22,909 bases of DNA from Elusimicrobiota bacterium (lineage in GTDB: Bacteria > Elusimicrobiota > Elusimicrobia > Elusimicrobiales > UBA9959), in assembly GCA_027340875.1 (NCBI GenBank), contig DAIENX010000095.1:1-22909 (forward strand). Direction: 5' to 3'. This document shows, piece after piece, positions 1,815-22,909 of the stretch; positions within the stretch are counted from its first letter, which is position 1, and the number at the start of each line of letters is the position of its first letter. Made by a program: the position numbers and the translations under genes. A model generated the notes under the pieces. That model was not told where the DNA came from. It did no database searches and saw nothing but the letters and a program-made list of their open reading frames with translations.

Positions 1815-3131
1815 CTAAATAGAGCGTTGAGCCTTTCTGATGAAGGCCTCGGAGACCTTGTGTCGGCGGGTCTTGCGCACCAGCAGTTCGATGCCGGCCC
1901 CTGTGTAGGATTCGCTGCCGCGCGGCGAGCGGCCCAGCTGTTTCTCTAGCCATGCCGCCAGCGTGATGTTGCCCGTATCCGGCTTCAACCCCAGCTTCCG
2001 CATGATCTCGGCCATATCGGCCCCGCCGCCGGCTATCAGCCCGCCGCCCGCGGCGTACAGGTGCGGCGGCAGGCGGTCGTATTCGTCCTTTATCGGGCCG
2101 CCCACCAGCTGGCCTATCAGGTCCTCCAGGGTCAGCATTCCGAGGGTCTTGCCTTCCTCGTCGGTGACCAGCGCCATGTGGACGTTGCGGGTGATCATCT
2201 CCTCCAGCGCCCTCGGCGCGGGGGTGCCGGCGCGGATCTTCTCTATGGGCCGCGTGATGCCCGCCACATCCGGGGACCTCGCCCGCATCTTCAGCGCGTT
2301 GACTATGTCCTTGAAGTTCACGTAACCGATAACGCTGCCGGCGGACCAGTCGGTCTTCGTCACCGGGAAGCGGGTGTGCAGGTCCATGTGGGCTCGTATC
2401 AGCGCCTCCTGCAACGACATGTCGGACGGTATATAGGAGATGGCGGATACCGGTATCAGCAGTTCCTCCACCTTGCGGGTGGCCAGCTCCGCGGCGGCGT
2501 TCACTATCCGCTCTTCCATCTTGCCTATCAGGCTCTCGTCGCGGGCCTGGGCCGCGGCGTGCCGCAGCTCCGAAAGGGCGGCTTTCTCGGCGTACTGCGC
2601 GCGGTCAGGCAGCATGGTCTGCGTGGCGCGCATCATCCTCTTGACTATCAGCTCGAAGACGCTCACTACCGGGTAACAGAGCAGGTAGAGCCCCTTGAAG
2701 AAGGGGGAGAAGGTGAGCAGGATGAATTCCTTGTTCTCTATCGCGAAGATCTTCGGCATCAGCTCGCCGAATATTATGGTGACGAAGCTCAGGGGCAGGA
2801 CGAAGAGGCCCAGCGCTAGGCCTTCGGCCAGGGCCTCGTTCAGGCCGTAGCGGTTCTCCAGGATGGGGGTTATGTACTCGTTGATGCCGGCGCCGCCGGT
2901 GGCCGCCGCGGCCGCCGCGGCAAGGGTGATGCCCAGCTGGATGAGGGAGAGGCTGGCCTCCATCCGCTCCTTCATGAACTGCGCGGATCCGGAGCCGGGG
3001 ACGTTCTGCTCCTTCAGGTGGCGCATGCGCGCCTTGGAGACGGAGGCCAGCGCCATCTCGTACGCGGCGAAGCCGGCGTTGAAGACCAGCATCAGCGCTA
3101 TGACCACCAGATCCGCCGGCAAACCGTGCAT
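1815..3131 (-). CDS. CNNM/DUF21-CBS domain protein (hemolysin/CorB-CorC family Mg2+ transport-related)
   Basis: N-terminal FNAGFAAYEMALASV and IIFGELMPK DUF21 motifs, tandem CBS (HTRFPV...GYVNFKD; HMALVTDE.G.TLGMLTLEDL) and a CorC-like C-terminus. Confidence 0.92.
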   Translation of the reverse strand: MHGLPADLVVIALMLVFNAGFAAYEMALASVSKARMRHLKEQNVPGSGSAQFMKERMEASLSLIQLGITLAAAAAAATGGAGINEYITPILENRYGLNEALAEGLALGLFVLPLSFVTIIFGELMPKIFAIENKEFILLTFSPFFKGLYLLCYPVVSVFELIVKRMMRATQTMLPDRAQYAEKAALSELRHAAAQARDESLIGKMEERIVNAAAELATRKVEELLIPVSAISYIPSDMSLQEALIRAHMDLHTRFPVTKTDWSAGSVIGYVNFKDIVNALKMRARSPDVAGITRPIEKIRAGTPAPRALEEMITRNVHMALVTDEEGKTLGMLTLEDLIGQLVGGPIKDEYDRLPPHLYAAGGGLIAGGGADMAEIMRKLGLKPDTGNITLAAWLEKQLGRSPRGSESYTGAGIELLVRKTRRHKVSEAFIRKAQRSI

Positions 3132-3145
3132 TATCCCCCCGGATT

Positions 3146-3173
3146 TTGACCTTATGTCGGAAAAAGATATAAT
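3146..3173 (+). promoter_or_regulatory. Sigma70-type promoter for tRNA-Gln
   Basis: TTGACC (3146-3151) - 16 nt - TATAAT (3168-3173), ending 10 nt before the tRNA. Confidence 0.75.
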
Positions 3174-3183
3174 AACAAAATAT

Positions 3184-3257
3184 TCCGGGATGGTGTAACG
3201 GTAGCACGAGAGACTCTGAATCTCTTTGTCTAGGTTCGAATCCTAGTCCCGGAGCCA
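3184..3257 (+). tRNA. tRNA-Gln (anticodon CTG), CCA encoded
   Basis: TCCGGGA acceptor pairs with TCCCGGA-G-CCA; anticodon arm AGAGA CT CTG AA TCTCT; T arm CTAGG TTCGAAT CCTAG. Confidence 0.97.
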
Positions 3258-3541
3258 AATTTAGGCCCCCTTTCGAGGGGGCCTATTAATTTGGCTCCGG
3301 GACAGCGAGACATAATTATGTCTCGCGGTAGGATTCGAAAGCCGGACCTGCGAGGCCAGCAGGCCGCAGCAGGGAGGCGGGGTCGCGGGCGGCGACGAGC
3401 GACGGCGAGGAGCCGACCCGTGACCGAATCCAAGTTCCCAACCTCTTCCCAGGTTCGGCTCGACTACGCTATCCTGTCGTGTGTTTTCGGAGAGCAAGCG
3501 CGAAGCGCGACCATCCTAGTCCCGGAGCCAAAATTTAGGCC
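3240..3541. repeat. tRNA-Gln 3'-end-derived repeat element: direct repeat plus interrupted inverted repeat
   Basis: atcctagtcccggagccaaa(a)tttaggcc at 3240-3267 and 3513-3541. Inverted copy aatttggctccgggac (3288-3303) + taggattcgaa (3329-3339) is split by a 25-nt insert holding a perfect 22-bp palindrome. Confidence 0.85.
3263..3284 (+). terminator. Hairpin after tRNA-Gln (UUCG loop)
   Basis: aggccccct-ttcg-agggggcct, 9-bp stem followed by attaatttt-like AT-rich tail (attaattt). Confidence 0.6.
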
Positions 3542-6690: not shown

Positions 6691-7158
6691 CTAGAAAAAG
6701 CCCGCCGCTATTCCCGCCGCTTCCTCCAGTCCGCGGCGGTCCGCCTCGTCGAAGGACCCGACCGCCGCGCTGTCTACGTCCAGTACGGCCTTGAGCTGCC
6801 CGCCCCGAAGCACGGGGACAACTATTTCCGACCTGGAGTCCGGATCGCAGGCTATGTGGCCCGGGAACTCGCGCACGTCGGCCACCACCAGGCTTTTCTT
6901 TTCCGCGGCGCAGCGGCCGCAGACGCCCCTTCCCGGCTTTATCCTTATGCAGGCGGGCTTGCCCTGGAAAGGCCCGAGGACCAGCTCCCCTTCCTTGAGC
7001 AGGTAGAAGCCGGCCCAGGAGTAATAAGGAAAAGCGCCCTTAAGCACGGCCGAGATGTTGGCCAGGTTGGCTATCAGGTCCTTCTCGCCGGCGGTCACGG
7101 CGCGTATCTCCGCGAGCGCTTTTCTGTAGGCTTCTTCCTTGGTCATCATGCGGGTCAT
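6691..7158 (-). CDS. msrC: GAF-domain protein, free methionine-(R)-sulfoxide reductase family
   Basis: WAGFYL...LVLGPFQGKPACIRI..GRGVCG...HIACD..SRSEIVVP...LDVDS, with all three family Cys present. The start could be one of the later Mets. Confidence 0.88.
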   Translation of the reverse strand: MTRMMTKEEAYRKALAEIRAVTAGEKDLIANLANISAVLKGAFPYYSWAGFYLLKEGELVLGPFQGKPACIRIKPGRGVCGRCAAEKKSLVVADVREFPGHIACDPDSRSEIVVPVLRGGQLKAVLDVDSAAVGSFDEADRRGLEEAAGIAAGFF

Positions 7159-7257
7159 GGCCTGAATATGCTCGGAAATTCAGCGAGGCAAGTCAACCGG
7201 CGTCCATATTGTCTATAATAGGCCTAATGCCGGACGCGCGGAAAGACAGGGGGGGAC

Positions 7258-7782
7258 ATGAGCGTTTCATCGCATCTTAATCCAGAGCCGGAGCGCAGGC
7301 TCTGGATAATGCACGCTAATATGCGCCGCGCGGCCGCCAGGTCGGATATAAAGCTGGGCGCGCTGGCGGTCTTCGCGTTGCTCGAGATCGCCCTGCTGCG
7401 CGTTGATTTCGTCTGCGGCGCGCTCTCGTGCGCCGCCATGACGGCGCTGTCGGCGGTGCTGCCGCTCTGCCTGCTCGCTGTATCCCCGTTCTCAGATTCC
7501 ACCGTGGTACGCCCCGGGCCGTCCGGCCGCCCCCGGCCTTCCGATTCGCTGGTGACGGCCCGCGACCTGGCCAAGTACCCGCAGATGGAGCTGGTGATCG
7601 CGCTGGACAAGTACCTGGGCGGCGGGGTCACGGCCACGCCGTACTACGAGGACATCGTAGGCCAGATATCCCTGTCGGCCCGTTCTGCCGTCAGGAAGGA
7701 GCTTGTGCTGAAGGCGGCCAGCGCCTTCGCGTTCGCCGCGCAGCTGCTGCTGGCCGTGATGTTTTCGCTTCGCCTGGCCTGA
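7258..7782 (+). CDS. Pycsar effector-like (PycTM/DUF5706-like) membrane protein
   Basis: Pattern xDxK before the first TM (RSDIKLGALAVF), a second TM, a soluble segment, then YEDIVGQISLSARSAVRK before a terminal TM. TATAAT at 7214-7219 and a G-rich RBS upstream. Family assignment is by eye. Confidence 0.6.
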   Translation: MSVSSHLNPEPERRLWIMHANMRRAAARSDIKLGALAVFALLEIALLRVDFVCGALSCAAMTALSAVLPLCLLAVSPFSDSTVVRPGPSGRPRPSDSLVTARDLAKYPQMELVIALDKYLGGGVTATPYYEDIVGQISLSARSAVRKELVLKAASAFAFAAQLLLAVMFSLRLA

Positions 7783-7803
7783 AGGATTTTCTAGAATACG
7801 ACC

Positions 7804-9315
7804 ATGCAGAACATCTCCGCCATCTTCGGACCCTGGATAATAGGCTTCTACGCCGCCGTGCTGCTTTCGGCGCTGGCGCTCGCGCGCGCGGTGCCCGGCT
7901 GCCGGAAGAGGCTCGGCGGGGCGGCGCTGATGACGCTGTTCTCCATCGCGGGCCTGCTCGCCGTGCGCCTGATGGGCGGAGCCGCCTCCGGGGGCCTGCC
8001 GAAGCTGACAGAGCTGGTCGCCCGCCTGCTGGCCGTCGTGGCCGCTATCAACGTGGCGGGGGTATTCGGCTTCTCGCTGGTCCTGCCCAGGCTCAGGACC
8101 GGGGTCTCCAAGTTCGTGGAGGACCTGATACTGGCCGCGACCTATCTGCTGGCCGGCCTGGCCGTGGTATCGGCGTCCGGCGCCGACCTCAGCGGCGTGC
8201 TGGCCACTTCGGCCGTGGTCACCGGCGTGGTGGCCTTCTCGCTGCAGGACACGCTGGGCAACATAATAGGCGGCATGGTGCTGCAGCTGGAAAGCTCGTT
8301 CCAGCCAGGCGACTGGATCCGGGTGGACGAGCACGAGGGCGTGGTGCGGGAGATCCGCTGGCGGCAGACCACCCTGGAGACGCTGGTCGGCGACATCAAG
8401 ATAGTGCCCAATATCCTGATCATGAAGAGCCCGGTCACCGTGCTGGGCCGCGCGGCCTCGGGCAAGCGCTTCCGTTCCGTCTCGTTCCCGGTGTATTACG
8501 ATTCCGCCCCGGGCGAGGTGATCTCTGCGGTGGCCGGCGCCCTGAAGGACGATCCGCCCGCCGGCGTAGCCGCGAGCCCGGCCCCGGACTGCGTGATAAA
8601 GGACTTCCAGCCCAATTCAGCCGTGTACGAGGCCCGCTACTTCCTCACGGATTTCACCGCTCCGGGCGGGGTAGACGCAGCGGTGCGCGCCAGGATCTAC
8701 TACGCGCTGACCAGGGCCGGCATAAAGATCTCGGTGCCGTCGCGCGCGATCATCGTCAGCGAGGCCGCGAAGGAAGTGGCCGAGAAGAGCGCCAGGGAGG
8801 AGCAGACCCGGCGGCTTGCGGCCCTCGACGGCGTCTACCTGTTCAAGGCGCTGAACTCCGGGGAGAAGGAGCTGCTGGCCGCGAGACTCAGGCCGACACC
8901 GTTCCAGACCGGAGAGCTGATGACGCGCCAGGGGGACAGGGCGTACTGGCTCTATATCATCCATAGCGGCTCCGCCGAAGTGCGGGTATATTCTGAAGGC
9001 GGGGCCTACAGGACCGTTAAGGTGCTGGGCCCCGGGGACTTCCTCGGGGAGATGGGGCTGCTCACCGGCGAGCCGCGGGCCGCTACGGTGGTGGCGGCCG
9101 CCGAGACGCGCTGCTACAGGCTGGACAGGGACTCCTTCAGGGACGTGCTGGCCGGACGTCCGGAGATGGCCGAGATGATCGCCTCCACGCTGGCCAAGAG
9201 GCGGACCGAGCTGGACGCGGTCAAGTTGAAACTGGCCGGCGAGGAGGCCGCCCGCGGCCTGACCGCCTCCGAGCGCGACCTGCTTTCGAGGATAAAGGAC
9301 TTTTTCAAGATCTAA
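7804..9315 (+). CDS. MscS-family mechanosensitive channel with C-terminal cyclic-nucleotide-binding domain
   Basis: MscS signature AFSLQDTLGNIIGG...FQPGDWIRV....GVVREIRWRQT; cNMP domain RQGD....LYII.SG...LGPGDFLGEMGLLTGEPRAATV. Confidence 0.93.
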   Translation: MQNISAIFGPWIIGFYAAVLLSALALARAVPGCRKRLGGAALMTLFSIAGLLAVRLMGGAASGGLPKLTELVARLLAVVAAINVAGVFGFSLVLPRLRTGVSKFVEDLILAATYLLAGLAVVSASGADLSGVLATSAVVTGVVAFSLQDTLGNIIGGMVLQLESSFQPGDWIRVDEHEGVVREIRWRQTTLETLVGDIKIVPNILIMKSPVTVLGRAASGKRFRSVSFPVYYDSAPGEVISAVAGALKDDPPAGVAASPAPDCVIKDFQPNSAVYEARYFLTDFTAPGGVDAAVRARIYYALTRAGIKISVPSRAIIVSEAAKEVAEKSAREEQTRRLAALDGVYLFKALNSGEKELLAARLRPTPFQTGELMTRQGDRAYWLYIIHSGSAEVRVYSEGGAYRTVKVLGPGDFLGEMGLLTGEPRAATVVAAAETRCYRLDRDSFRDVLAGRPEMAEMIASTLAKRRTELDAVKLKLAGEEAARGLTASERDLLSRIKDFFKI

Positions 9316-9364: not shown

Positions 9365-11128
9365 ATGAAACTCTTGAAAGGCGCGGAATCTCTGCTGGGC
9401 GCGACAGGCGAGGAAGTGTTCACCCCGGAGGACTTCAGCGACGAGCAGAAGCAGATAGGGGAGACCACCGAGCAGTTCGTGGTCAAAGAGGTCCTGCCGC
9501 ACCTGGACGAGATAGAGCAGCAGAAGTTCGAGCTCAACGTCGAACTGATGCGTAAGTGCGGAGAACTGGGTCTGCTGATGCTCGACGCCCCGAAGGAATA
9601 CGGCGGGCTGGAGCTGGACAAGGTCACCAACATGCTGATGACCGAGAAGATATCGCAGGCCGGCTCCTTCTCGATAACCTTCTCCGCCCATACCGGCATA
9701 GGCACGCTGCCGCTGGTCTATTACGGCACCAAGGAGCTCAAGGAGAAGTACCTGCCGAAGATCATGAGCGGCGAGTGGGTGGCCGCCTACTGCCTCACCG
9801 AGCCAGGCTCCGGCAGCGACGCGCTGGGCGCCAAGTCCACCGCCGAGCTCACCCCCGACAAGAAGTTCTACGTCCTGAACGGCACCAAGCAGTTCATCTC
9901 CAACGGCGGCTTCGCCCATATCTACACCATCTTCGCGAAGACCGGCAAGGAGCTTAGCGCCTTCCTGGTGGAGCGCGACACCCCCGGCCTTAGCTTCGGC
10001 CACGAGGAGAAGAAGATGGGCATCAAGGGCTCATCCACCACCCAGGTCATCATGCAGAACGTGAAGGTGCCCGTCGGGAACCTGCTGGGCGAGGAGGGGA
10101 AAGGCCACAAGATAGCCTTCAACGTCCTGAACATCGGGCGCCTGAAACTGGGCGCCGGAGTGACCGGCGCGGCCAAAGTGGCGCTGGCCGACGGCATAAA
10201 GTACGCCAACCAGCGCAAGCAGTTCGGCAAGCTGATCAGCAGCTTCGGCGCTATAAAGGAGAAGATCGCCGACATGACGGCCGCGATCTTCGCCTCGGAG
10301 GCGCTGGTATACCGGCTCGCCGGCATGATAGACGCGCGGGTTGAGACCGTGGACCGCGGCTCGCCGGACTACTACAAGCTCTACCAGAAGGGGATAGAGG
10401 AATACGCGATAGAGTGCGCCATCTCCAAGGTGTTCTGCAGCGAGATGCTGGCCGGCGTGGTCAGCGACGTGCTGCAGATGTACGGCGGCTACGGCTATAT
10501 CCAGGAATACCCGGCCGAGCGCTATTACCGCGACGAGCGCATCAACCGCATCTTCGAGGGGACGAACGAGATCAACCGCATGCTGGTCAGTGGCACCGTG
10601 ATGGGCCGCGGCCACAAAGGCGATATCCCGCTGAAGGAGAGCGTCTCCGCCGCGGTGGACGCGCTGAAAGGGGAGCCGGCGGCTCCGGGCTCGGGGCCTT
10701 TCGGGGCGGAGAAGGCCCTGCTGGCCGGGATGAAGAACGTGTTCCTCGTCCTGACCGGGGCCGCGATGCGCAAGTTCCTGTTCTCCATCAAGGACGAGCA
10801 GGAGGTGCTGATGGCGCTGGCCGACATCGCGATCAACATCTTCGCCCTGGAGAGCGCGGTGCTGCGCGCAGAGAAGATCCTGCCTAAGCTCAGCGGCGAC
10901 AAGAAGACCTGCGCTCAGGCCGCGGTGAAGGTGTTCGCGTTCGCTTCCGCGGAGAAGGCGGCCTCGGCCGCCCGCCGGTCGGCGGCTTACGTGAAGGACG
11001 GCAAGGACCTGGACCAGCTGTTGGCGGCTATCGGGAAGCACTGCCTCTACAGGGCGGAGGGGCTGCTGAAGGCCAAGCGCCAGCTGGCGGACGCGGCCAT
11101 AGAGGCGGAGAAGTTCATCTTCGCCTGA
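9365..11128 (+). CDS. fadE: Acyl-CoA dehydrogenase, long form with C-terminal extension (Bacillus FadE/ACAD9-like)
   Basis: YCLTEPGSGSDA, LNGTKQFISN, KMGIKGSST, RKQFG, GGYGYIQEYPAERYYRDERINRIFEGTNEI. Confidence 0.92.
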   Translation: MKLLKGAESLLGATGEEVFTPEDFSDEQKQIGETTEQFVVKEVLPHLDEIEQQKFELNVELMRKCGELGLLMLDAPKEYGGLELDKVTNMLMTEKISQAGSFSITFSAHTGIGTLPLVYYGTKELKEKYLPKIMSGEWVAAYCLTEPGSGSDALGAKSTAELTPDKKFYVLNGTKQFISNGGFAHIYTIFAKTGKELSAFLVERDTPGLSFGHEEKKMGIKGSSTTQVIMQNVKVPVGNLLGEEGKGHKIAFNVLNIGRLKLGAGVTGAAKVALADGIKYANQRKQFGKLISSFGAIKEKIADMTAAIFASEALVYRLAGMIDARVETVDRGSPDYYKLYQKGIEEYAIECAISKVFCSEMLAGVVSDVLQMYGGYGYIQEYPAERYYRDERINRIFEGTNEINRMLVSGTVMGRGHKGDIPLKESVSAAVDALKGEPAAPGSGPFGAEKALLAGMKNVFLVLTGAAMRKFLFSIKDEQEVLMALADIAINIFALESAVLRAEKILPKLSGDKKTCAQAAVKVFAFASAEKAASAARRSAAYVKDGKDLDQLLAAIGKHCLYRAEGLLKAKRQLADAAIEAEKFIFA

Positions 11129-11150
11129 GCCTCAGGGGAGAGCGGTACGG

Positions 11151-11182
11151 AAGCCCGGGGATCATCCCCGGGCTTTCTTTTT
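11151..11182 (+). terminator. Terminator for fadE overlapping the last codons of the convergent fadJ
   Basis: aagcccgggga-tca-tccccgggctt followed by tcttttt. Confidence 0.7.
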
Positions 11183-13270
11183 CAGGTAGTCGCAGGGAAC
11201 CAGCCGCGTAGCGTTGAATTCTTTTGCCAGGCGCTCCAGGTCGTCCGCGATGGCGGCGAGCCCGGTCTCCTCGGCGTAGCGCCACAGGCCGCCGCGGAAC
11301 GGCGGGAAGCCGGTGCCCATTATCATCGCCAGGTCTATGGCCTCCGGGTCGTTCACGATGCCCTCGTCCAGGCAGCGCGCCGCCTCGTTGACCATGCCGT
11401 AGATCATTCGCTTTACGGCGTCCTCGGCATCTATGAAGCGCTGCCCGCGCTCGGGGATGATCTTGTATATCTCCTCGTTCACGGCGCCCTTGCGGCCGTC
11501 CGCGTAGCTGTAGAAGCCGAGACCCTTCTTCTTGCCCAGCAGGCCGGCGTGCTTGGCCGCCTCGAGCACGGCGCTGACGCTCATGCGCTCGCCGAAGGCC
11601 TCGTGGAAGATCTTGGCCACCTTGGCGCCCACGTCTATGCCGACCTCGTCCACCAGCTCTATCGGGCCCATCGGCATGCCGAAGTCGCGCGCCGCTTTGT
11701 CCACGCGCTCTATGGCCATCCCCTCCTGCACCAGGAAGGCGGCCTCGTTCAGGTACGGCACGAGGATGCGGTTGACCAGGAAGCCGGGCGAGTCCTTCAC
11801 CACCACCGCGGTCTTGCCGAGCTCCCTGGCGAAAGCCACTACGGTGGCCAGCGTCTTCGGACTGGTCTCGGCTGTCCTTATGACCTCCACCAGCGGCATC
11901 CGGTGCACGGGGTTGAAGAAATGCATGCCGGCCAGACGCGTTCTGTCCTTCATCTCCGCGCCGATGTCGGCTATGGTCAGCGACGAGGTGTTGGAGACCA
12001 GCACGGTCCCCGTGGCGGTGTTCTTCTCCAGCTCCGCGAAGACTTTGCGCTTTATCCCGATGTCCTCGACCACCGCTTCCACTACGATGTCGGAGTTCTT
12101 GAAGCCGTCGTAGGTCAGGGTGGGGGAGATCAGCGCCATCCTGTGCGCCGCCTGGTATTTGTTCAGTTTGCGCCGCTTCAGCGCGGAGCGGTAGATGCCG
12201 TCGGCGGTCTTCATGGCCTGCTGCAGGGCCGGGAAGTTGATGTCCTTGACGCGCACCGGTATGTCCCTGGAGCTGGCCAGCTGGGCTATACCGCCGCCCA
12301 TTATGCCGGCGCCGGAGACCGCGCATTTGCTCACCTTGGCCGGCTCCGCGCCCGAGGCCCAGTCCAGTTTCTTGAACTTTTCGGTCAGGAAGAAGAGCTT
12401 GACCAGGTTGCGCGAGACACCGGTGACGGCCAGCTCGGCCAGCGCCTCCCGCTCCTTCTTCAGGCCGGTGGCCAGGTCTCCGCCGAAAGTCTCCTGTATC
12501 ACGCGCAGCGCCTTAAGCGGCGCGGGGTAGAAGCCCTTGGTCTTCTCCAGCACCTTCTTGCGGGCCTGGCTGAACAGCAGGGCCCTGCCCGGGGCGGTGC
12601 CGTCGAGGAAGGATTGCATCAGCGTGCTCTTCCTCGGCTGGGCCCGGCGCGGCCCGGGGGGTAGGGAAGCGGCGAAAGCCACGGCCTCGGCGCGGAGCAG
12701 CAGCTCCGGCCAGAGCCTGTCGACTATGCCGCGTTTGAGCGCGTCCTTGCCGGAGATGATCTTGCCGGCCAGTATCATGTCCACCGCCGCGGAAAGACCT
12801 GCCAGGCGGGGCAGTCTCTGCGTGCCGCCCCAGCCGGGAAGTATGCCGAGGTTCACCTCCGGCAGGCCTATCTTGACCTTGGGCCCCGAGCCTGCCACGC
12901 GGTATTTGCAGGCCAGCGCCAGTTCGAAGCCTCCGCCGAGACAGGCGCCGTTTATCGCGGCCACGGTCGGGATAGGTAGGGCCTCCAGCTTGTCCAGTAT
13001 CTTCTGCCCCTCGGCCGCCACCGCGAGGGCCTCCTCTTCGGTCCGGAGGTTCGCGATGGCCTTGATGTCCGCGCCGGCTATGAAGACTCCTTCCTTGGCG
13101 CTGGTTATAACCAGCGCCTTGATGTCGCCGCCGGCCTTGCCGGCCACCTCGTCGATAAGCGAGGAGAATTCCCTCATCACCGCGGCGTCCAGAGTGTTGA
13201 CCTTGGCGCCCGACTGGTCGAACTCTATTACCGCTATGTCTTTCTCGGTCTTGAGGTTGAGTGAGCCCAT
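11162..13270 (-). CDS. fadJ: Fatty-acid oxidation complex alpha subunit (enoyl-CoA hydratase / 3-hydroxyacyl-CoA dehydrogenase)
   Basis: FIAGADI, CLGGGFELAL, GLPEVNLGILPGWGGTQRLPRL, GAGIMGGGIA, SNTSS, GMHFFNPVHRMPLVE, GTGFPPFRGG. Confidence 0.93.
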   Translation of the reverse strand: MGSLNLKTEKDIAVIEFDQSGAKVNTLDAAVMREFSSLIDEVAGKAGGDIKALVITSAKEGVFIAGADIKAIANLRTEEEALAVAAEGQKILDKLEALPIPTVAAINGACLGGGFELALACKYRVAGSGPKVKIGLPEVNLGILPGWGGTQRLPRLAGLSAAVDMILAGKIISGKDALKRGIVDRLWPELLLRAEAVAFAASLPPGPRRAQPRKSTLMQSFLDGTAPGRALLFSQARKKVLEKTKGFYPAPLKALRVIQETFGGDLATGLKKEREALAELAVTGVSRNLVKLFFLTEKFKKLDWASGAEPAKVSKCAVSGAGIMGGGIAQLASSRDIPVRVKDINFPALQQAMKTADGIYRSALKRRKLNKYQAAHRMALISPTLTYDGFKNSDIVVEAVVEDIGIKRKVFAELEKNTATGTVLVSNTSSLTIADIGAEMKDRTRLAGMHFFNPVHRMPLVEVIRTAETSPKTLATVVAFARELGKTAVVVKDSPGFLVNRILVPYLNEAAFLVQEGMAIERVDKAARDFGMPMGPIELVDEVGIDVGAKVAKIFHEAFGERMSVSAVLEAAKHAGLLGKKKGLGFYSYADGRKGAVNEEIYKIIPERGQRFIDAEDAVKRMIYGMVNEAARCLDEGIVNDPEAIDLAMIMGTGFPPFRGGLWRYAEETGLAAIADDLERLAKEFNATRLVPCDYLKKKARG

Positions 13271-13285
13271 AACGATCTCCTTGGC

Positions 13286-14563
13286 CTAGCGTTCCAGCAC
13301 TACGGCCCCGCCGAGGCCGCCGCCCACGCAGAGCGAGGCGACTCCGAACTGCAGGCCGCGCCGCTTCAGCTCCTTGAGCAGCGTGAGTATCAGCCGCGAG
13401 CCTGTGGCCCCTACCGGGTGCCCCACCGAGATGCCGCTGCCGTTCACGTTGAGCTTCGCCGGGTCCACCTCGCCTACAGCCTCGGAGCGAGACAGCACGT
13501 CCTGCGCGAACTTCCTTGAGGCCAGCATCCGGAGGCTGGCCAGTACCTGGGCCGCGAAGGCCTCGTTGATCTCTATCAGCCCCATGTCCTTCAGGTCTAG
13601 CCCCGCCTTCTTCAGGGCCACCGGTATGGAATAGGCGGGTCCCAGGCCCATGCGCGACGGGTCCAGGCCTTCGTAGGCGTAGGAGCGGACGTAGCCGAGC
13701 GGCTCGTAGCCGAGGGACTTCGCGCGGCTCTCCTTCATGACCAGCAGCGCGCAGGCGCCGTCGGTGACCTGGCAGGAATTGCCTATCGTGACGCTGCCGG
13801 CGGCGCGGTCGAAGAACGGCTTCATCTTCGCCAGCGATTCCAGCTGCAGGTTCTCGCGCGGCCCGTTGTCGTCCTCGAGCACCGTCTCGAACTTGCGCCC
13901 TGTGATATACGGCACTATCTCCTCCCGCAGCTTCATCTTCCCGGCCACGGCCTTGCGGTGGCTCTCCAGCGCGAACTCGTCCTGTTCTCTGCGGCTGATG
14001 CCCAGTTCCTTGGCCAGCAGCTCGGCAGTGGAGCCCATGTTCAGCCCGCAGAACGGGTCGGTGAGGCCCTGCGCCAGGCTGATCACCGGCTTCAGGTAGG
14101 AGGGCTTTATGGACGCCAGCAGGCCCAGCTTCTGGCCGAAGGTCTTCGCTTTGGAGAGGCGGGTAAGTAGCTTCGTCAACGGCTTGCCGACGGTGAGGGG
14201 GATGTTGGACATCGACTCCGCGCCGCCGGCTATCACTATCTCGTCGAAGCCGGTGGTGATCTTCTCCAGCGCGCTGGTGACGGATTCGAGGCCGGAGGCG
14301 CAGTTGCGGCTTATCGTGTAGGCGCGCTTGCGTTCCGGGATCCCGGCGTAGAGGGCCACCACCCTGGCCAGGTTGGCCGCCTCCATCGGCTGCGCCACGC
14401 AGCCGAAGATGACCTCGTCCACGAGTTCGGGGTCCAGACCGGTGCGTTCCAGCAGTTCGCGTGTGCAGGCCGCCCCCAGTTTCTGCGCCGGTTCGTCCTC
14501 GAACACCGTCCAGGCCTTCGCGAACGGGGTGCGTACGCCGTCGACTATGGCTATCCTGTCCAT
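13286..14563 (-). CDS. fadI: 3-ketoacyl-CoA thiolase (FadI-like)
   Basis: RNCASG catalytic Cys, GGAESMS, INEAFAAQ, GHPVGATG, SLCVGGGLG. Confidence 0.9.
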   Translation of the reverse strand: MDRIAIVDGVRTPFAKAWTVFEDEPAQKLGAACTRELLERTGLDPELVDEVIFGCVAQPMEAANLARVVALYAGIPERKRAYTISRNCASGLESVTSALEKITTGFDEIVIAGGAESMSNIPLTVGKPLTKLLTRLSKAKTFGQKLGLLASIKPSYLKPVISLAQGLTDPFCGLNMGSTAELLAKELGISRREQDEFALESHRKAVAGKMKLREEIVPYITGRKFETVLEDDNGPRENLQLESLAKMKPFFDRAAGSVTIGNSCQVTDGACALLVMKESRAKSLGYEPLGYVRSYAYEGLDPSRMGLGPAYSIPVALKKAGLDLKDMGLIEINEAFAAQVLASLRMLASRKFAQDVLSRSEAVGEVDPAKLNVNGSGISVGHPVGATGSRLILTLLKELKRRGLQFGVASLCVGGGLGGAVVLER

Positions 14564-14582
14564 GAGCTCTCCCCTGCGGCCC

Positions 14583-16064
14583 CTAGGCCGCCTGTCTCCT
14601 GTCCACTATCTTGCGCGCCTTTACCGACGTCTCTATCTCTATGCGCTTCTGTATCTCCTTGTGCGTGACCACCTCCACCTTGTTGAAGGTGAGCTCGGTG
14701 TCGGCCAGCACCTGCTTGTTGATCTGCCGCTTGAACTCCTCCGGGTCGGCGTCCTTCAGCAGGCTGACGTACAGGGAGATCTCGTCCACCTCGTAAGGGT
14801 CGTTGTCCTTCTTGGCTATCTCGATCTGCCACTCGTCCACGTGGCTGTTGCCGTCCAGGAGGAACTCCAGCCGGTTGAAGTTGACCAGCGTGCCCTTCAC
14901 CTTGGAGATCTGCAGGTCCTTCACGTTGGAGGCGCGCACCAGGTCGCTGGAGATGCGCGGCACCGTGCGGCCGCAGTGCGGGCAGGGCTCGTAGGTGATG
15001 CCGCCCTTCACGTAGTCGCCGGTGCGGTAGCGCAGCAGGCAGGAACCGCGGCTGTCTATCGTGGAATAGACCACCTCTCCGTCCTCGCCCTCGCCCACCG
15101 GCTGCCCGGTCTCCGGGTTGATGACCTCGAAGATCTCCCTGTCCGGGTAGGTGTGGTAGCCGCTCATCACGTCGATATCGGTGGGGCATTCCGGCCAGGC
15201 GGTGCGGGCCTCGGTGAAGCCGTAGGTGCCGAAGACGCTGACGTTAGAGGCCCCCATCTCCATCAGCAGGCCGGCCAGCTTGCGCTTGAAGCCCACCGGG
15301 GCTCGCGCGGCTCCCAGCACGATCTTCTTCACGAAGCTCATGTCCATGTTCTGCGCGCGAGCCTCCTTCAGCAGGTGGTAGACGTAGCTCGGGACGCCGG
15401 CCAGCAGGCGGGGCTTGAGCTTGGCGATGGAGCGCAGGTTGCCCTCGGTGCCCATCGTCTTGCCGCCGCCGGTGCTGAGGATCAGCACGCCGGCCTCGGT
15501 GCCGGCGAAGAAGACCTGCCAGAAGGCCAGGTGCGGCGCGTACGGGAACAGGTTGACCGCGGTCTCGTCGGTCTTCATGTCGAAGATGTCGACGATGCGC
15601 TTGCCGTAGAACTTCAGGTTCTCCAGGTCGTAGTGCGTGTAAAGGAAAGGCATCGGCTGGCCGGTGGTGGTGCCGGCGGTGCTGGTCAGGAAGATGGGAC
15701 GGTATTCCTTCTCCAGGCTCTTCTTCAGGTAGTCGGCGCCCCTGAAGATCTTGGTGGCCGCCACTTTCAGCAGTTCGCCCTTCGGCAGGTATTTCTTTAT
15801 CAGCTCCTCGCTGGGCTGCAGTATCAGGTCCCGCGTCTTCCCTTCCGCCGACATCTTTACCAGGTCCGCCTTGGTGGTGAAGGGTATGCGGCGCAGGTCA
15901 TCGGTGGTCCTGATGCTGTCCGGCTTTATCCCGTTGCGGTCGAACATCTCCCGGTAGTACGGGCTGAACGGGTAGACCTTCGTGGTGATGAAGTCGTGCA
16001 GCTTACGGTTCTGCAGCTCCTTGAGCTCGGCCCAGGGCCTGAACAGCAGTTCTTTGTCGGTCAT
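14583..16064 (-). CDS. Phenylacetate-CoA ligase (PaaK)-family AMP-forming ligase
   Basis: SPYYR...DL..IPFTTKADL, P-loop variant STAGTTTGQP, YGFTE, LLRYRTGD, KVKGTLV. Confidence 0.85.
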   Translation of the reverse strand: MTDKELLFRPWAELKELQNRKLHDFITTKVYPFSPYYREMFDRNGIKPDSIRTTDDLRRIPFTTKADLVKMSAEGKTRDLILQPSEELIKKYLPKGELLKVAATKIFRGADYLKKSLEKEYRPIFLTSTAGTTTGQPMPFLYTHYDLENLKFYGKRIVDIFDMKTDETAVNLFPYAPHLAFWQVFFAGTEAGVLILSTGGGKTMGTEGNLRSIAKLKPRLLAGVPSYVYHLLKEARAQNMDMSFVKKIVLGAARAPVGFKRKLAGLLMEMGASNVSVFGTYGFTEARTAWPECPTDIDVMSGYHTYPDREIFEVINPETGQPVGEGEDGEVVYSTIDSRGSCLLRYRTGDYVKGGITYEPCPHCGRTVPRISSDLVRASNVKDLQISKVKGTLVNFNRLEFLLDGNSHVDEWQIEIAKKDNDPYEVDEISLYVSLLKDADPEEFKRQINKQVLADTELTFNKVEVVTHKEIQKRIEIETSVKARKIVDRRQAA

Positions 16065-16138
16065 TTTTAGTCCCCTTCTCCATGCTCCCGGTCCTCAAGC
16101 CGGGAAAATCGCGCGGCGAGCCGCGCACCCCCGAAGGA

Positions 16139-16166
16139 ATTATAATATAAAAAAAGGACAAGTCAA
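16139..16166 (-). promoter_or_regulatory. Sigma70-type promoter for the ligase-thiolase-fadJ operon
   Basis: Minus strand TTGACT (16166-16161) - 16 nt - TATAAT (16144-16139). Confidence 0.72.
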
Positions 16167-16355
16167 CCCCCGGGCCATTGCCTGAAGGCAGTCCGCGGCT
16201 TGACCATGCTCGCTGTCAAAGCACCTAAAAATTTGTTAGGCTAAATACGTAGTTCTCCGGGTGCACGCAGCTTATGACGTCGCCAGAATTCCCTAAAATC
16301 CAACTATCAAAGGAGACCGCGCCCCGCCGCGGCCGCATTGCCGGGCGCGAAGACC

Positions 16356-18650
16356 ATGAACATCTCTAAAAAAGAAGCCCTGGATTATCATTCCTCGCCG
16401 GTCCACGGAAAGATAGAGGTCGTTTCCACCAAGCCCTGCTTCACGCAGCGCGACCTCAGCCTGGCCTACACGCCGGGCGTGGCCGATCCGTGCCTGGAGA
16501 TCGAGAAGCATCCCGAGGACGTCTACAAGTACACCTCGAAGGGGAACCTCGTGGCCGTGATCTCCAACGGCACCGCGGTGCTCGGCCTGGGCAATATCGG
16601 CGCGGCCGCCGGCAAGCCGGTCATGGAGGGCAAAGGCATCCTGTTCAAGCGCTTCGCCGACATAGACGTCTTCGACCTGGAGCTGGCCAGCGAGAAGCCC
16701 GAGGAGATAATCAAGGCCTGCCAGCTGCTAGAGCCCACGTTCGGCGGCATCAACCTCGAGGACATCAAGGCCCCCGAGTGCTTCGAGATCGAGGAGACGC
16801 TGAAGAAGACGATGAAGATCCCGGTCTTCCACGACGACCAGCACGGCACGGCCATCATCTCCGGCGCGGGCCTGATCAACGCGCTCGAGGTGGTGGGCAA
16901 GGACATCGCCAAGGTGCGGCTGGTGGTCAACGGGGCCGGCGCGGCCGGCTTCTCCTGCGCCGACCACTACGTGCGCCTCGGCGTGAAGCGCGGGAACATC
17001 ATGATGTGCGACACGAAGGGCGTGCTGTACAAGGGCCGCGCGGCCGGCATGAACAAGTACAAGGAGAAGTTCGCGGTCGACACCCCGCTGCGCACGCTGG
17101 CCGAGGCGATGAAGGGCGCCGACGTCTTCATAGGCCTGTCGGTGGCCGACGTGGTCACGCCGGACATGCTTAAGTCCATGGCCCGGGACCCGATAGTGTT
17201 CGCGATGTCCAACCCGAACCCGGAGATCAAGTACGAGCTCGCGGTGGCCACACGCAGCGACCTGATCATGGCCACCGGCCGCTCGGACTATCCCAACCAG
17301 ATCAATAACGTGCTCGGCTTCCCGTTCATCTTCCGCGGCGCTCTAGACGTGCGCGCGACGCAGATCAACGACGAGATGAAGCTGGCCGCCACGTACGCGC
17401 TGGCCAGGCTCGCCAAGGAGGACGTGCCCGACTCGGTCCGCAAGGCCTACGGCGGCCAGAAGCTGCAGTTCGGGCGCGAGTACATCATCCCCAAGCCTTT
17501 CGACTCCCGCGTGCTGATCTGGGAGGCCTCCGCCGTCGCCGAGGCCGCGATGAAGACCGGCGTAGCGCAGCGGCCCGTGGACCTGGAGGAGTACAAGCTC
17601 CAGCTCGAGAAGCGCCTCGGCAGGGCCCGCGAGATCATGCGGACCGTGATAGCCAAGGCCCAGCGCGAGCCGAAGCGCATAGTCTTCCCCGAGGGCGAGG
17701 AAGAGAAGATCCTCCGCGCCGCGCAGGAGCTGGTGGAGGAGCGGATAGCGAAGCCTATCCTCCTGGGCATAGAGACCAAGATCCGCTCCCTCGCGGCGGA
17801 GCAGGGCCTCTCCCTGGACGGCATCACCATAGTGGACCCGTGGACGTTCCCCAAGAGGCCGGCCTACGTGGCCGAGTATTTCAAGATGCGTGAGCGCAAG
17901 GGCGCCACCCGGCATCGTTCCGAGGAGATAATGACCGGCAACAGGAACGCCCTGGGCGCCATGATGGTGCACATGGGCGACGCGGACGCGCTGGTCTCGG
18001 GACTGACCGACCATTACCCGCAGACCATCCGCCCCGCGCTGCGCGTCATCAGGCTGCAGGACGGCATCAGCAAGGTGGCGGGTCTCTACATGCTCGTGAT
18101 GAAGAAGGAGGTCTATTTCCTCGCGGATACCACCGTCAACATAGACCCCAGCGCCGAGGACCTGGCCGAGATAGCCCTGATGGCGGCCGCGACGGCCCGG
18201 CGCTTCGACATCGAGCCGCGCGTCGCGATGCTCTCCTTCTCCAACTTCGGCAGCACCGCGCATCCGCTGGTGCAGAAGGTCAGCCGCGCGGTGGAGATAG
18301 TCAAGGCCAAGGCGCCCGGACTGATGATAGACGGCGAGATGCAGGCCGACACGGCGGTGGTGCCGGAGATAATCGAGAGCACCTATCCCTTCAGCACGCT
18401 GAAGGGGGGGGCGAACGTCCTCATCTTCCCGAACCTCGAGGCGGGCAATATCGCCTACAAACTGATGAGCAGGCTGGGCGGCGCCACGGCCATAGGCCCC
18501 ATCCTGATGGGCCTGAGCCAGCCGGTCCACGTGCTGCAGCGGGCGGCCGAGGTGGCCGATATCGTAAATATCTCCGCGATAGCGGTGGTGGACGCGCAGG
18601 AGAAGGCCAAGGCCCAGGCGGAAAAGCCCAGGACGGCGGTAACGGCCTGA
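16356..18650 (+). CDS. maeB: NADP-dependent malic enzyme with C-terminal phosphotransacetylase-like domain
   Basis: [51 protein letters not shown], then the PTA domain ([16 protein letters not shown]). ATG at 16356 is preferred over TTG at 16338. Confidence 0.96.
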
Positions 18651-18658
18651 CGGAACGG

Positions 18659-18704
18659 GGCGCCCGGCTCCCCGCCGGGCGCCATTGCTTGACATAGGTC
18701 AAGC
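18659..18704 (+). promoter_or_regulatory. GC hairpin after maeB followed by a TTGAC-N4-GTCAA palindrome upstream of mdh
   Basis: ggcgcccggc-tcccc-gccgggcgcc (18659-18683); gcTTGAC-atag-GTCAAgc (18687-18704). Confidence 0.5.
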
Positions 18705-18791
18705 GGGGGAATGTCTTTTGTCATACATCTTGCTTACGCAAGTATGATACGATAATTGAAATTTGTTATTACAACGGAGTTAGGAGGTTCC

Positions 18792-19724
18792 ATGAAGAGA
18801 GGTAAGGTTACAGTCGTCGGCGCCGGCCACGTGGGCGAATCGGTGGTCAGGGCGCTGGCGGAGAAGGACATCGCGGACATAGTGCTGGTGGACATCCCCC
18901 AGACCGAGAACATGCCCGCCGGAAAGTCGCTGGACATCATGGAGACGGCGCCTATATACGGCTATGACGCCAAGATCACCGGCGTCACCAGCTACGAGGC
19001 CACCGCCGGTTCCGACATCGTAGTAATAACCGCCGGCCTGCCCCGCAAGCCCGGCATGAGCCGCGACGACCTGCTGAACACCAACGCGGCCATCGTGAAG
19101 AGCGTGACCGAGCAGGTCGCGAAGTACTCGCCCCAGGCCATACTTATCATCGTCAGCAACCCGCTCGACGCGATGTGCCAGGTGGCCCTGCAGACGTCCA
19201 AGTTCCCGAAGAACAGGGTCATCGGCATGGCCGGCATCCTGGACTCCTCCCGCATGCGCTCGTTCATCGCGGCGGAGCTGAAGGTCTCCACGGAGAACGT
19301 GCACGCGATGGTGCTGGGCGGCCACGGCGACACGATGGTGCCCCTCCCCAGGTTCTCCACGGTGGCCGGCATCCCGATAACCGAGCTGCTCCCCAAGGAG
19401 AAGATAGACGCCATCAACACCCGCACCTGCAACGGCGGCGCGGAGATAGTGAAGCTGCTGAAGACCGGCAGCGCCTATTACGCCCCCGCGGCGGCCGCGG
19501 TGGAGATGGTCGAGGCCATCATGCTGGACAAGAACAAGGTCGTGCCCTGCGCGGCCTATCTCGACGGAGAGTACGGCATCAACGGCATCTTCGTCGGCGT
19601 CCCGGTAAAGCTGGGCGCCACCGGCATCGTCGAGGTGCTGAAGCTCAAGCTCAACGAGGACGAGAAGTCCGCTCTTATGAAGTCCGCCTCCGCTGTCAAG
19701 GAACTCTGCGGGGCCCTGAAGTGA
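18792..19724 (+). CDS. mdh: Malate dehydrogenase (LDH-like type)
   Basis: [62 protein letters not shown] precedes the ATG at 18792. Confidence 0.96.
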
Positions 19725-19753
19725 ACTGACCGAATTATCCAAGGAGAAAAACG

Positions 19754-21430: not shown

Positions 21431-22909
21431 TCAAAGCCACTTGTGCCTGGGATAGCGGCGGGCCAGCGCGGGCTTCAGTTTCGGATAGCTCTCCGTCCAG
21501 AAACTCTTCAGGTCCTTCGTGACCTGCACCGGCCGCATCGACGGTGCCAGGATGTGCACCACCAGCGGCACGCGGCCCGCGGCTATGCGTGGCGTTTCCG
21601 TCAGCTGGAACAGGTCCTGTATCTTCGCTTCCAGGTAGGGCTCGCCGTTCTTCGGATAGCGTATCTTGGCCCTGCGGCCGCCTGGCATCTCCAAACGGGC
21701 CGGGGCGTGCCGGTCTATCAGCCGCACCTTCTCCCAGCCGTACCAGTCCTGCAGTGCCGGCAGCACCGGGCGCAAGCGGGCGTCCGACACGCTGCGTGCG
21801 CCCGAGCAGATATCGTGTATTATCAGCCGGCGGTCCTCTTCCGAAAGCGGCTCTATCCCGAGGTCGGGGCAGGAGCGCGCGAGGAACTCCACCCGCGCCA
21901 GCCAGTCCTCCACCTCTTCGTCCCACTTCTGGAACCTCTGCTCCCCGCTGATGAACTCCTCCGCTATGAGCTCCGAGGAGGCCTTCGCGGGTCTGGCGGC
22001 CGAGACCTCCCTGCGTATCGCGACTCCGCGGTAAAGGGTGAGCGTCTCGGTGACCGGGGTGAGCATGACCTCGTCGAGGGCCGCGCGCGAGACGGTCTCT
22101 ATATCCCCGGGGAAGGCCTCCGTCAGCCACTCCTCGTTCATCGCGGCCGCGAAGGAAAGCGTGATGTCGGCGCTGCCCTTCTTCATGCTTTCCAGGGCTT
22201 CGCCGGCGCAGATGATGCGCGCTCCCGCCGCGGCGCTGCCGTCGGCCAGCCGCCCCCGCCGCCCGCCCGGCATCTCGTAGCGGCCTTTCTCGGCCGAGAA
22301 CAGCGCCCCGACCCGGTCCGGGAAGGCCCGCAGGAAGCATTTGGAGGCCAGCTCGAGGCCTTTGTGTCCCGCCGGGGAAGCGCCGCCGGAAATACGGGAG
22401 GCGAGCCGCCAGGCGTCGCGCGCGGCGTTCTGCTTCATGCCGGCCTTCTGGCAGGCGAAATAGTCGAAGTCCGAGTCCGCGCAGCGCTGCAGCGCTTTAA
22501 CCACGGCGGCGAGGTCCGAGCGCAGCCTCTCGCCGCTTTCGAGCTGCTTGGCTTCGTCGAGCCAGATGCCGCGCCCCTGCGCGGCGGCGGCGATCACGGC
22601 GCATTCCCAGGCGCAGCCCAGGCGGGCGCCCTCCACCATCATGCGCGAGTAGCGCGGGTGAAGAGGGTATCTGGCCATGGCCCTGCCGTCCGCGGTAAGG
22701 CGGCCCTGCGCGTCGGCGGCGCCCAGGTCCTTGAGCAGCCTCTCGGCCCTTTCGGCGTCCTTCTCCGGGGGAGGGTCCAGCCACCTGAGCGCCCCGAAGC
22801 CGGAGAAACCGCAGGCTTTCAGCGTCAGCAGCGCCTCGCTGACGTCGAGCCGCAGTATCTCCGGCGAGAGCGACCGGGGCCTGCCCGCGTTGTCGCGCTC
22901 GGTCCAGAG
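21431..22909 (-). CDS. hrpB: ATP-dependent helicase HrpB, C-terminal part (5' end beyond window)
   Basis: Frame is open to the window edge (LWTER...PEILRLD...WLDPPP...LT.DGRAMARYPLHPR); AFPDRV; HrpB_C motif HILAPSMRPVQVTKDLKSFWTESYPKLKPALARRYPRHKW. Confidence 0.94.
   Translation of the reverse strand, partial: LWTERDNAGRPRSLSPEILRLDVSEALLTLKACGFSGFGALRWLDPPPEKDAERAERLLKDLGAADAQGRLTADGRAMARYPLHPRYSRMMVEGARLGCAWECAVIAAAAQGRGIWLDEAKQLESGERLRSDLAAVVKALQRCADSDFDYFACQKAGMKQNAARDAWRLASRISGGASPAGHKGLELASKCFLRAFPDRVGALFSAEKGRYEMPGGRRGRLADGSAAAGARIICAGEALESMKKGSADITLSFAAAMNEEWLTEAFPGDIETVSRAALDEVMLTPVTETLTLYRGVAIRREVSAARPAKASSELIAEEFISGEQRFQKWDEEVEDWLARVEFLARSCPDLGIEPLSEEDRRLIIHDICSGARSVSDARLRPVLPALQDWYGWEKVRLIDRHAPARLEMPGGRRAKIRYPKNGEPYLEAKIQDLFQLTETPRIAAGRVPLVVHILAPSMRPVQVTKDLKSFWTESYPKLKPALARRYPRHKWL

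What the first reader, a model, noticed from the sequence alone, without database searches (positions are those of the whole stretch)
7258..9315. Pycsar-effector-like membrane protein paired with a cNMP-binding MscS channel, with no cyclase nearby
Seen: a 174-aa 3-TM protein with the xDxK / D..GQI..SA....RK layout lies 21 bp upstream of an MscS-cNMP fusion on the same strand, behind a TATAAT box. The cNMP phosphate-binding cassette (GEMGLL..EPRAAT) is intact. Known: PycTM effectors are cyclic-pyrimidine-activated membrane effectors normally encoded beside a PycC cyclase, and MscS-cNMP fusions are bacterial cyclic-nucleotide-gated channel candidates. No cyclase is present in this 23 kb. Inference: these may be two cyclic-nucleotide-responsive membrane effectors in one operon, either an orphan defence module reading a signal made in trans or a domesticated channel plus accessory subunit.
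Basis: partly seen in the sequence, partly recalled or inferred. Interest (0 to 1): 0.72.

Follow-up and report, generated by a model that had tools for sequence, protein, structure and literature searches.

The report
Domesticated Pycsar-type pore beside cAMP channel
A small membrane protein related to a bacterial anti-phage suicide pore has lost its signal-making partner gene and is kept as a conserved single-copy gene in Elusimicrobia, likely for everyday membrane work, while the cyclic-nucleotide-binding channel gene next to it is likely a separately switched-on neighbour rather than its partner.

Summary
Observation confirmed. The 174-aa protein is a true, remote PycTM relative (HHalign 99.6%), and the MscS-cNMP fusion has an intact binding cassette. 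The obligate two-effector operon is not supported. The PycTM-like gene is single-copy in 50 of 80 genomes of its Elusimicrobiota family and 24 of 47 of a second family. It is under purifying selection and largely follows the host tree. None of 81 distinct loci has a cyclase beside it, against 25 of 52 canonical PycTM loci. It has lost several canonical PycTM residues and gained two near-invariant motifs. The channel abuts it in 21 of 50 genomes, either gene is lost separately, and the channel has its own leaderless -10 box in 31 of 34 copies. The host has five adenylate-type cyclases on other contigs and no PycC was found. Best reading: a domesticated, cyclase-free PycTM clade beside an independent bCNG-type channel. 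Against this, a SulP-cNMP transporter also abuts the gene in 11 genomes, so a shared cAMP role is not excluded. The scan noted other cyclase-free PycTM genes before, on other DNA.

The parts
7258..7782 (+). 174-aa three-TM protein of an Elusimicrobiota-specific, cyclase-free clade of the PycTM (PF18967, pJV1-SpdB3 3TM) family
7258..7302 (+). clade-specific N-terminal motif MSVSSHLxPEPERRL (residues 1-15), predicted cytoplasmic
   Evidence: S4, H6, L7, P9, P11, E12, R14 and L15 at 97-98% in 140 clade proteins; apart from L15 they are not conserved in 92 canonical PycTMs
7606..7653 (+). clade-specific loop motif DKYLGGGxTATPYYED (residues 117-132) between TM2 and TM3, predicted cytoplasmic
   Evidence: D117, Y119, L120, G121-G123, T125, T127, Y129, E131 and D132 at 95-100% in the clade
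7214..7219 (+). TATAAT, possible -10 box of the TM gene
   Evidence: sequence; not above chance on its own; similar boxes lie at varying distances upstream in some relatives
7792..7797 (+). TAGAAT -10-like box ending 6 nt before the channel's ATG: predicted leaderless promoter of the channel gene
   Evidence: same spacing in 31 of 34 homologues; genome-wide peak at 6 nt
7804..9315 (+). [quoted passage not shown]
8899..9153 (+). cNMP-binding domain (residues 366-450); phosphate-binding cassette at about 9046-9087
6691..7158 (-). divergent stand-alone GAF protein; not a conserved neighbour (only this genome and its closest relative)
21431..22678 (-). 3' part of hrpB helicase, the usual convergent neighbour of the TM gene in this family; here about 12 kb of beta-oxidation and TCA genes lie between it and the channel

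Best explanation
The 174-aa gene encodes a three-helix membrane protein of the Pycsar-effector (PycTM) family that has no cyclase beside it and is kept as a conserved single-copy gene in two Elusimicrobiota families, where it likely forms a small ring-shaped membrane pore for housekeeping ion or solute control; the MscS-cNMP gene next door is a separate channel, predicted to have its own leaderless promoter and likely gated by cAMP from the host's adenylate-type cyclases. Shown: homology, loss of cyclase linkage, motif turnover, vertical inheritance, purifying selection in the pair tested, independent loss of either gene. Inferred: descent from a Pycsar-type effector (the nearest canonical relatives are mostly cyclase-linked); hexameric pore (by homology with EcPucTM); control through the new cytoplasmic motifs, by a conserved host partner or ligand rather than a cyclic pyrimidine; cAMP gating of the channel. 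The adjacency most likely arose once, when the channel gene with its promoter came to lie between the TM gene and hrpB in part of one genus, and it has since been eroded from both sides.
For: Homology. Single copy in 50 of 80 genomes of the family; 27 of 47 and 24 of 47 in two families of a 401-genome phylum sample. Cyclase adjacent in 0 of 81 clade loci against 25 of 52 canonical PycTM loci searched with the same HMM. Long stem, SH-aLRT 100 in a quick tree. Canonical N33, N97, F/Y100-101 and N140 positions are replaced, while D30, K32, P77, D103, D132, Q136 and K147 are kept. dN/dS 0.094 against the sister genome; GC tracks the host locus, r 0.88. TM identity tracks HrpB identity, Spearman 0.72 over 496 non-independent pairs, and the two trees share most clades. 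No viral relative. Co-occurrence with the channel: both 30, TM only 20, channel only 10, neither 20; Fisher p 0.66 within the genus. 4 of 24 in the second family, on other contigs. G046 and G047, sisters of this lineage, keep the TM gene without the channel. The channel is split over two frames or reduced to a remnant beside an intact TM gene in G066 and G040. Channel -10 box in 31 of 34 copies, including 10 of 13 copies not directly behind the TM gene. Five class III cyclases elsewhere in the genome with K-[FY]-x-GD and Y-T-x-x-GD motifs; three PycC profiles find only these five, weakly.
Against: Two different cNMP-binding transporters flank the TM gene in genus g1: the channel directly downstream in 20 genomes and SulP-STAS-cNMP directly upstream, with a gap of about 20-60 nt, in 11 of 34 genomes that have both. 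One genome (G030) keeps TM and channel adjacent in reverse order. Family-wide co-occurrence is weakly positive (p 0.037, kin not independent). The nucleotide site of PycTM/PucTM is unresolved (bioRxiv 10.64898/2026.08.12.744502, section 14), so losing canonical residues does not prove loss of nucleotide sensing. The gene was not found in 30 of 80 family genomes, so it is not essential. No terminator was called between the two genes, so read-through co-transcription is possible. No function was measured.
Confidence: 0.6

Rival explanations
1. A cAMP-responsive membrane module. The PycTM-derived protein has been retuned to the host's housekeeping cAMP (or acts as an optional subunit) and works with the MscS-cNMP channel and the SulP-STAS-cNMP transporter, which is why the three cluster in genus g1.
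For: Both flanking genes are cNMP-binding membrane transporters, though only 10 genes in this genome carry the domain. SulP-TM adjacency spans several branches of the genus. Reversed but adjacent order in G030. An adenylate-type cyclase lies directly upstream of the channel in G001. PucTM systems use a purine cNMP (bioRxiv 10.64898/2026.08.12.744502, passages).
Against: No cNMP-domain gene was found in the fetched flanks of any of the 34 loci first brought in by the all-genome scan (L113 onward). Independent losses. Separate promoter for the channel. SulP is on another contig in this genome. Adjacency needs only one or two historical events.
Confidence: 0.22
2. An orphan abortive-infection effector that still kills the infected cell, triggered by a cyclic nucleotide made in trans or directly by a phage product.
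For: Family membership and nearest relatives in true Pycsar-type operons (24 of 42 metagenome loci with an adjacent cyclase; plasmid example). Patchy absence in the family. Faster evolution than HrpB or AhcY (median identity 51% against 77-88%).
Against: Fixed housekeeping loci (hrpB, ahcY, argGH and others), single copy, host-like GC, vertical tree. No PycC found in the 92% complete genome. The real Pycsar-like pair found in the phylum (L183) is 31% GC and sporadic.
Confidence: 0.1
3. Not a pore at all: a membrane scaffold or envelope-complex subunit whose invariant cytoplasmic motifs dock a soluble host protein, as plasmid Spd proteins act in multi-protein membrane complexes.
For: The invariant residues are in predicted cytoplasmic segments while the TM helices vary freely. 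The family name derives from a plasmid-spreading protein, and pSVH1 SpdB3 acts in a membrane DNA-spreading complex (PMC4447253, passages; its membership in PF18967 was not tested here).
Against: No conserved partner gene in 81 loci. The only solved relative is a hexameric channel (preprint section 14).
Confidence: 0.08

Closest known systems
PycTM / PucTM effectors of Pycsar and Pucsar (PF18967; pJV1-spdB3 family 3TM; EcPucTM hexamer, PDB 37HR per the preprint)
   Same: End-to-end homology, about 170 aa, three TM helices, retained E/D-x-K, P, D-I/L, D..Q-I and R-K positions.
   Different: No adjacent cyclase (0 of 81 against 25 of 52). Canonical W-L-x-F-A-E-x-K-N, N-L-L-F-F-G-D and Q-I-x-x-N motifs are partly replaced. 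Two new near-invariant motifs. Single-copy vertical inheritance at housekeeping loci; about 20% identity to canonical members.
bCNG channels (MscS-like channels with a C-terminal cNMP-binding domain; Caldwell et al. 2010, seen only as described in PMC13591265)
   Same: MscS core plus one C-terminal cNMP-binding domain with an intact cassette.
   Different: The review places them mostly in cyanobacteria and says their physiological role and structure are unknown. The Elusimicrobiota copies carry a conserved leaderless-type -10 box and about five TM helices. Gating untested.
Other cyclase-free PycTM-family genes (canonical-motif orphans in Elusimicrobiota, L175, L176, L180-L186, L188)
   Same: No cyclase neighbour; housekeeping surroundings.
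   Different: They keep more canonical motifs, score far higher on PF18967 and fall outside this clade.

Membership tests
PycTM protein family (PF18967) | Sequence homology over the three-TM domain | tested here: met
   HHalign 99.6%; 38 of 42 homologues hit PADLOC PycTM profiles; the clade profile retrieves over-cut-off PF18967 proteins. The window protein alone is below Pfam detection.
PycTM protein family (PF18967) | Three TM helices with a helical cytosolic region | tested here: met
   Hydropathy and AlphaFold model, pLDDT 88.
PycTM protein family (PF18967) | Canonical conserved motifs (..W L x F A E x K N; N L L F F G D; Q I x x N S x I..K) | tested here: not met
   Charged core kept, but W, N33, N97, F/Y100-101 and N140 positions are replaced in the clade.
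PycTM protein family (PF18967) | Fold identity with the solved EcPucTM hexamer | tested here: inconclusive
   No PycTM-family chain was found in the PDB copy; fold searches gave only generic helical bundles.
Pycsar / Pucsar system | Dedicated class III cyclase (PycC/PucC) encoded next to the effector | tested here: not met
   0 of 81 loci adjacent; control 25 of 52. Three PycC profiles find only five receptor-type cyclases on other contigs; the genome is 92% complete.
Pycsar / Pucsar system | Sporadic distribution in defence islands or mobile DNA | tested here: not met
   Single copy in 50 of 80 genomes, housekeeping neighbours, host-like GC, tree congruent with HrpB, no viral hit.
Pycsar / Pucsar system | Activation by a cyclic mononucleotide and anti-phage activity | not testable with these tools
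   Needs binding and phage assays.
bCNG (MscS-cNMP) channels | MscS pore and beta domains fused to a C-terminal cNMP-binding domain | tested here: met
bCNG (MscS-cNMP) channels | Intact phosphate-binding cassette | tested here: met
   GE..L....R-A-A here; G-E and R kept in 31 of 31 complete cassettes among 35 homologues, mostly followed by S/T-A.
bCNG (MscS-cNMP) channels | Gating by cyclic nucleotide | not testable with these tools
   Needs patch clamp.
   Adjacent in 21 of 50 TM-bearing genomes of one family and 0 of 24 in the other; independent losses.

The most novel reading that the evidence does not exclude
An anti-phage suicide pore was captured by the ancestor of two Elusimicrobiota families, freed from its cyclase and rewired through a new glycine-rich cytoplasmic site to the cell's own cAMP, forming with a bCNG channel and a SulP-cNMP transporter a cAMP-controlled membrane-transport cluster: an immune effector turned into housekeeping signalling.
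Probability: 0.2. Interest if true: 0.72.

Novelty: new variant of a known kind. Interest (0 to 1): 0.42.

Why it matters
It is a clean natural case of a phage-defence effector family member that is uncoupled from its signal enzyme and inherited like a household gene. The residues it lost and kept, compared with cyclase-linked relatives, point to candidate positions for the still unmapped nucleotide site of PycTM/PucTM pores. It also warns that PycTM profile hits in Elusimicrobiota are mostly not Pycsar systems. The neighbouring bCNG-type channel is a known but physiologically unexplained class; here it sits in a host with five adenylate-type cyclases, a plausible source of its ligand. The hosts are known here only from metagenome-assembled genomes, so tests must be heterologous.

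Tried and rejected
Structure searches: Foldseek had no match at E <= 0.001; VIA-align gave only generic helical bundles, best Z 11.3 to a designed protein; sequence searches of PDB with both family profiles were empty. The four-copy complex prediction returned no verdict (score 0.30, mark 0.42, controls not run) and is not used as evidence. A TM-channel complex was not predicted (one job only). Expression: no RNA holder was listed, and three same-study RNA contig sets did not cover the two genes; no inference drawn. Fusions: long upstream open frames in high-GC loci are off-frame shadows, each TM gene has its own start; a search for proteins of 351-2000 aa found none (weak, and 306-350 aa was not covered). 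Two cyclase-fold ORFs lie near clade genes (G078, one gene away on the opposite strand, divergent; G014, a receptor cyclase 3.6 kb away on the opposite strand): rejected as partners because each occurs once and is not operonic. A cGMP preference read from an Asp in the channel's C-helix was dropped because that position varies (D/A/N/T/S). EcPucTM Q16 and F98 could not be mapped because its sequence is in closed bioRxiv supplements. The careful tree did not finish; the quick tree is used, with 45 of the 92 canonical proteins plus two genome copies. Literature searches that found no description of this clade: 0 papers; 0 papers; the library lacks most subscription papers.

Full report
Observation. 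Both ORFs are as described: 7258-7782 (174 aa) and 7804-9315 (503 aa), same strand, 21 nt apart. The larger protein has MscS beta and C-terminal domains and a cNMP-binding domain whose cassette aligns with the PRAATV of PKA RI-alpha. The small protein has no Pfam or NCBIfam hit itself but matches PADLOC PycTM profiles nearly end to end at E 1e-4. The TATAAT at 7214 is real but not above chance (4 found, 1.87 +/- 1.41 expected).

The small protein is a genuine PycTM relative. A protein search gave 261 hits; 112 of the 120 listed carry a precomputed PF18967 label, although a direct scan gave PF18967 for only 9 of 42 aligned members at E <= 0.1. PADLOC PycTM profiles hit 38 of 42. The family profile retrieved 139 cluster representatives; 29 of the 30 best distant ones that I scanned pass the PF18967 cut-off. 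HHalign of the family against 47 distant members gave 99.6% over 167 columns, and 29 of 30 ESM Atlas neighbours are PycTM clusters. AlphaFold gives an all-helical model, pLDDT 88, consistent with three hydrophobic stretches.

It forms its own clade with changed motifs. In a quick IQ-TREE tree of 72 rows (25 clade, 47 canonical; groups were first set by score) the clade is one side of a long branch with SH-aLRT 100. Comparing 140 clade with 92 canonical proteins: L15, D/E30, K32, P77, D103, D132, Q136, I137 and K147 are shared. The canonical W (80%), the N after the lysine (88%), the N and two aromatics of NLLFFG (93-96%) and the N of QIxxN (93%) are replaced. Two new motifs, MSVSSHLxPEPERRL and DKYLGGGxTATPYYED, have core positions conserved at 95-100%; by the predicted topology both are cytoplasmic (inference). 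Median identity is 49% within the clade and 20% to canonical members.

It behaves like a household gene. One copy in 50 of 80 genomes of the family. In a 401-genome phylum sample it occurs in 27 of 47 and 24 of 47 genomes of two families, with only two far weaker canonical-type hits elsewhere. Of 80 loci from an all-prokaryote genome scan, 72 are titled as Elusimicrobiota taxa and 8 as unnamed bacteria; that scan used clade-specific peptide patterns. No relative in viral contigs. Neighbours are mostly housekeeping genes: hrpB lies in the fetched region of 32 of 81 loci, with ahcY, argGH, aldehyde dehydrogenase, parAB and others; a few loci have an integrase, transposase or type I restriction gene nearby. 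dN/dS against the sister genome is 0.094, like the channel's 0.087 (one pair only), and gene GC tracks locus GC. TM identity follows HrpB identity (Spearman 0.72; weaker, about 0.3, against AhcY, MscS and SulP), and FastTree trees of both share most clades.

No cyclase partner. An HMM built from the host's five cyclases and one Pycsar-like cyclase, then iterated on control loci, finds an adjacent cyclase at 0 of 81 distinct clade loci; 50 of these had at least 3 kb on both sides. Two loci have a non-operonic cyclase-fold ORF nearby. The same HMM finds a same-strand cyclase within 400 nt at 25 of 52 canonical PycTM loci: 24 of 42 from a metagenome scan with the nearest outgroup and 1 of 10 from Elusimicrobiota. 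The HMM was trained on those controls, which favours them. A plasmid example is annotated as effector plus cyclase. So the clade most likely descends from, or is sister to, Pycsar-type effectors and has lost the link (inference; no rooted test was run). The genome has five class III cyclases on other contigs. All are long proteins with N-terminal membrane or sensor regions (my reading of translations) and carry the Lys and Thr that, from general knowledge of class III cyclases (recalled), specify ATP. Three PycC profiles find only these five, at 23-51 bits. The genome is 92% complete, and it has 10 cNMP-binding proteins.

The pair is local and loose. The channel occurs in 40 of 80 genomes: both genes 30, TM only 20, channel only 10, neither 20; Fisher p 0.037 overall, 0.66 in the genus, 1.0 outside it (kin are not independent and assemblies are incomplete). 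From the coordinates, the 30 split into 20 with the channel directly behind the TM gene, 1 reversed (G030), 1 with a gene between, 2 at 3-9 kb and 6 on different contigs. In the second family 4 of 24 TM-bearing genomes have the channel, each on another contig. On the HrpB tree the pair is confined to part of one genus and needs 8 changes; G043, G031, G045 and G052 keep only the channel at the locus, and G046, G047, G040 and G044 only the TM gene. A -10-like hexamer ends exactly 6 nt before the channel's ATG in 31 of 34 copies, including 10 of 13 not directly behind the TM gene. The same spacing is the genome-wide peak (55 cases at 6 nt, 29 at 7 nt, at most 16 elsewhere, among 2884 candidate ATGs). 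This predicts a leaderless transcript and independent expression; it was not tested on RNA.

Results against this reading. In 11 of 34 genomes that have both, a SulP-STAS-cNMP transporter lies directly upstream of the TM gene, so two cNMP-binding transporters flank it in 10 genomes. G030 keeps adjacency in reverse order, and G001 has an adenylate-type cyclase just upstream of the channel. No terminator was called in the gap. These keep a shared cAMP role at about one in five.

What is known. Papers seen: bioRxiv 10.64898/2026.08.12.744502 (passages, and sections 5 and 14 whole; supplements closed) reports that PycTM/PucTM belong to the pJV1-spdB3 3TM family, that EcPucTM is a hexamer with a 15 A central channel, and that its nucleotide site is unresolved. 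PMC13591265 (passages) describes bCNG channels and says their role and structure are unknown. PMC11224242 (passages) defines Pycsar as cyclase plus receptor. PMC13069673 and PMC4447253 were seen as passages. The original Pycsar and bCNG papers were not read (otherwise recalled). Searches found no description of this clade. Earlier notes of this scan describe other cyclase-free PycTM genes, in marine phages and Bacteroidota; none covers this sequence.

Verdict. The protein is a member of the PycTM family but not part of a Pycsar system. It is a new, cyclase-free and apparently domesticated variant whose function is inferred, not shown. The channel is an ordinary member of the known bCNG architecture. 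Their pairing is most likely inherited synteny. Interest 0.42.

Noticed in passing
L180:1426-1938, L184:1348-1863, L185:1342-1854, L188; related L181, L182: A second cyclase-free PycTM lineage in the same class (motif NLARQLDWIRAAD.K). In four genomes it lies just downstream of a PNPase-like gene (my reading of the translation); G061 has both lineages.
   Followed up: partly
L183:325-1824: A conventional Pycsar-like pair (cyclase plus PycTM, 31% GC) in another Elusimicrobiota family; used as a control.
   Followed up: partly
G000 genome; window 7792-7806: Genome-wide excess of TAnAAT ending 6 nt before ATG suggests common leaderless transcription in this lineage; five genus g11 copies of the TM gene show CATAAT at the same spacing.
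   Followed up: partly
L052:7307-9619; G000:C69:15224-17416: SulP-STAS-cNMP fusion transporter in 42 of 80 genomes of the family, often directly upstream of the TM gene.
   Followed up: partly
L108:3654-4691: Divergent membrane-anchored protein with a class III cyclase-like C-terminus and no Pfam hit at 1e-5.
   Followed up: no
window 9365-21088: About 12 kb of fatty-acid beta-oxidation and central-metabolism genes (acyl-CoA dehydrogenase by Pfam; the rest, including malic enzyme, malate dehydrogenase and citrate synthase, by my reading of the translations) separate the channel from hrpB here and in the sister genome. The acyl-CoA dehydrogenase starts 49 nt after the channel with no terminator called.
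   Followed up: no
L175:7151-7657, L176:7029-7535: Canonical-motif PycTM orphans in housekeeping surroundings in two other Elusimicrobiota families; L175 sits next to a RelE-like ORF (my reading).
   Followed up: partly
window 3259-3330 region (within the reading of ORF 2605-3258): The translation of ORF 2605-3258 begins with text typical of a read-through tRNA gene, suggesting a tRNA near 3190-3260 on the minus strand; not checked with a tRNA scan.
   Followed up: no
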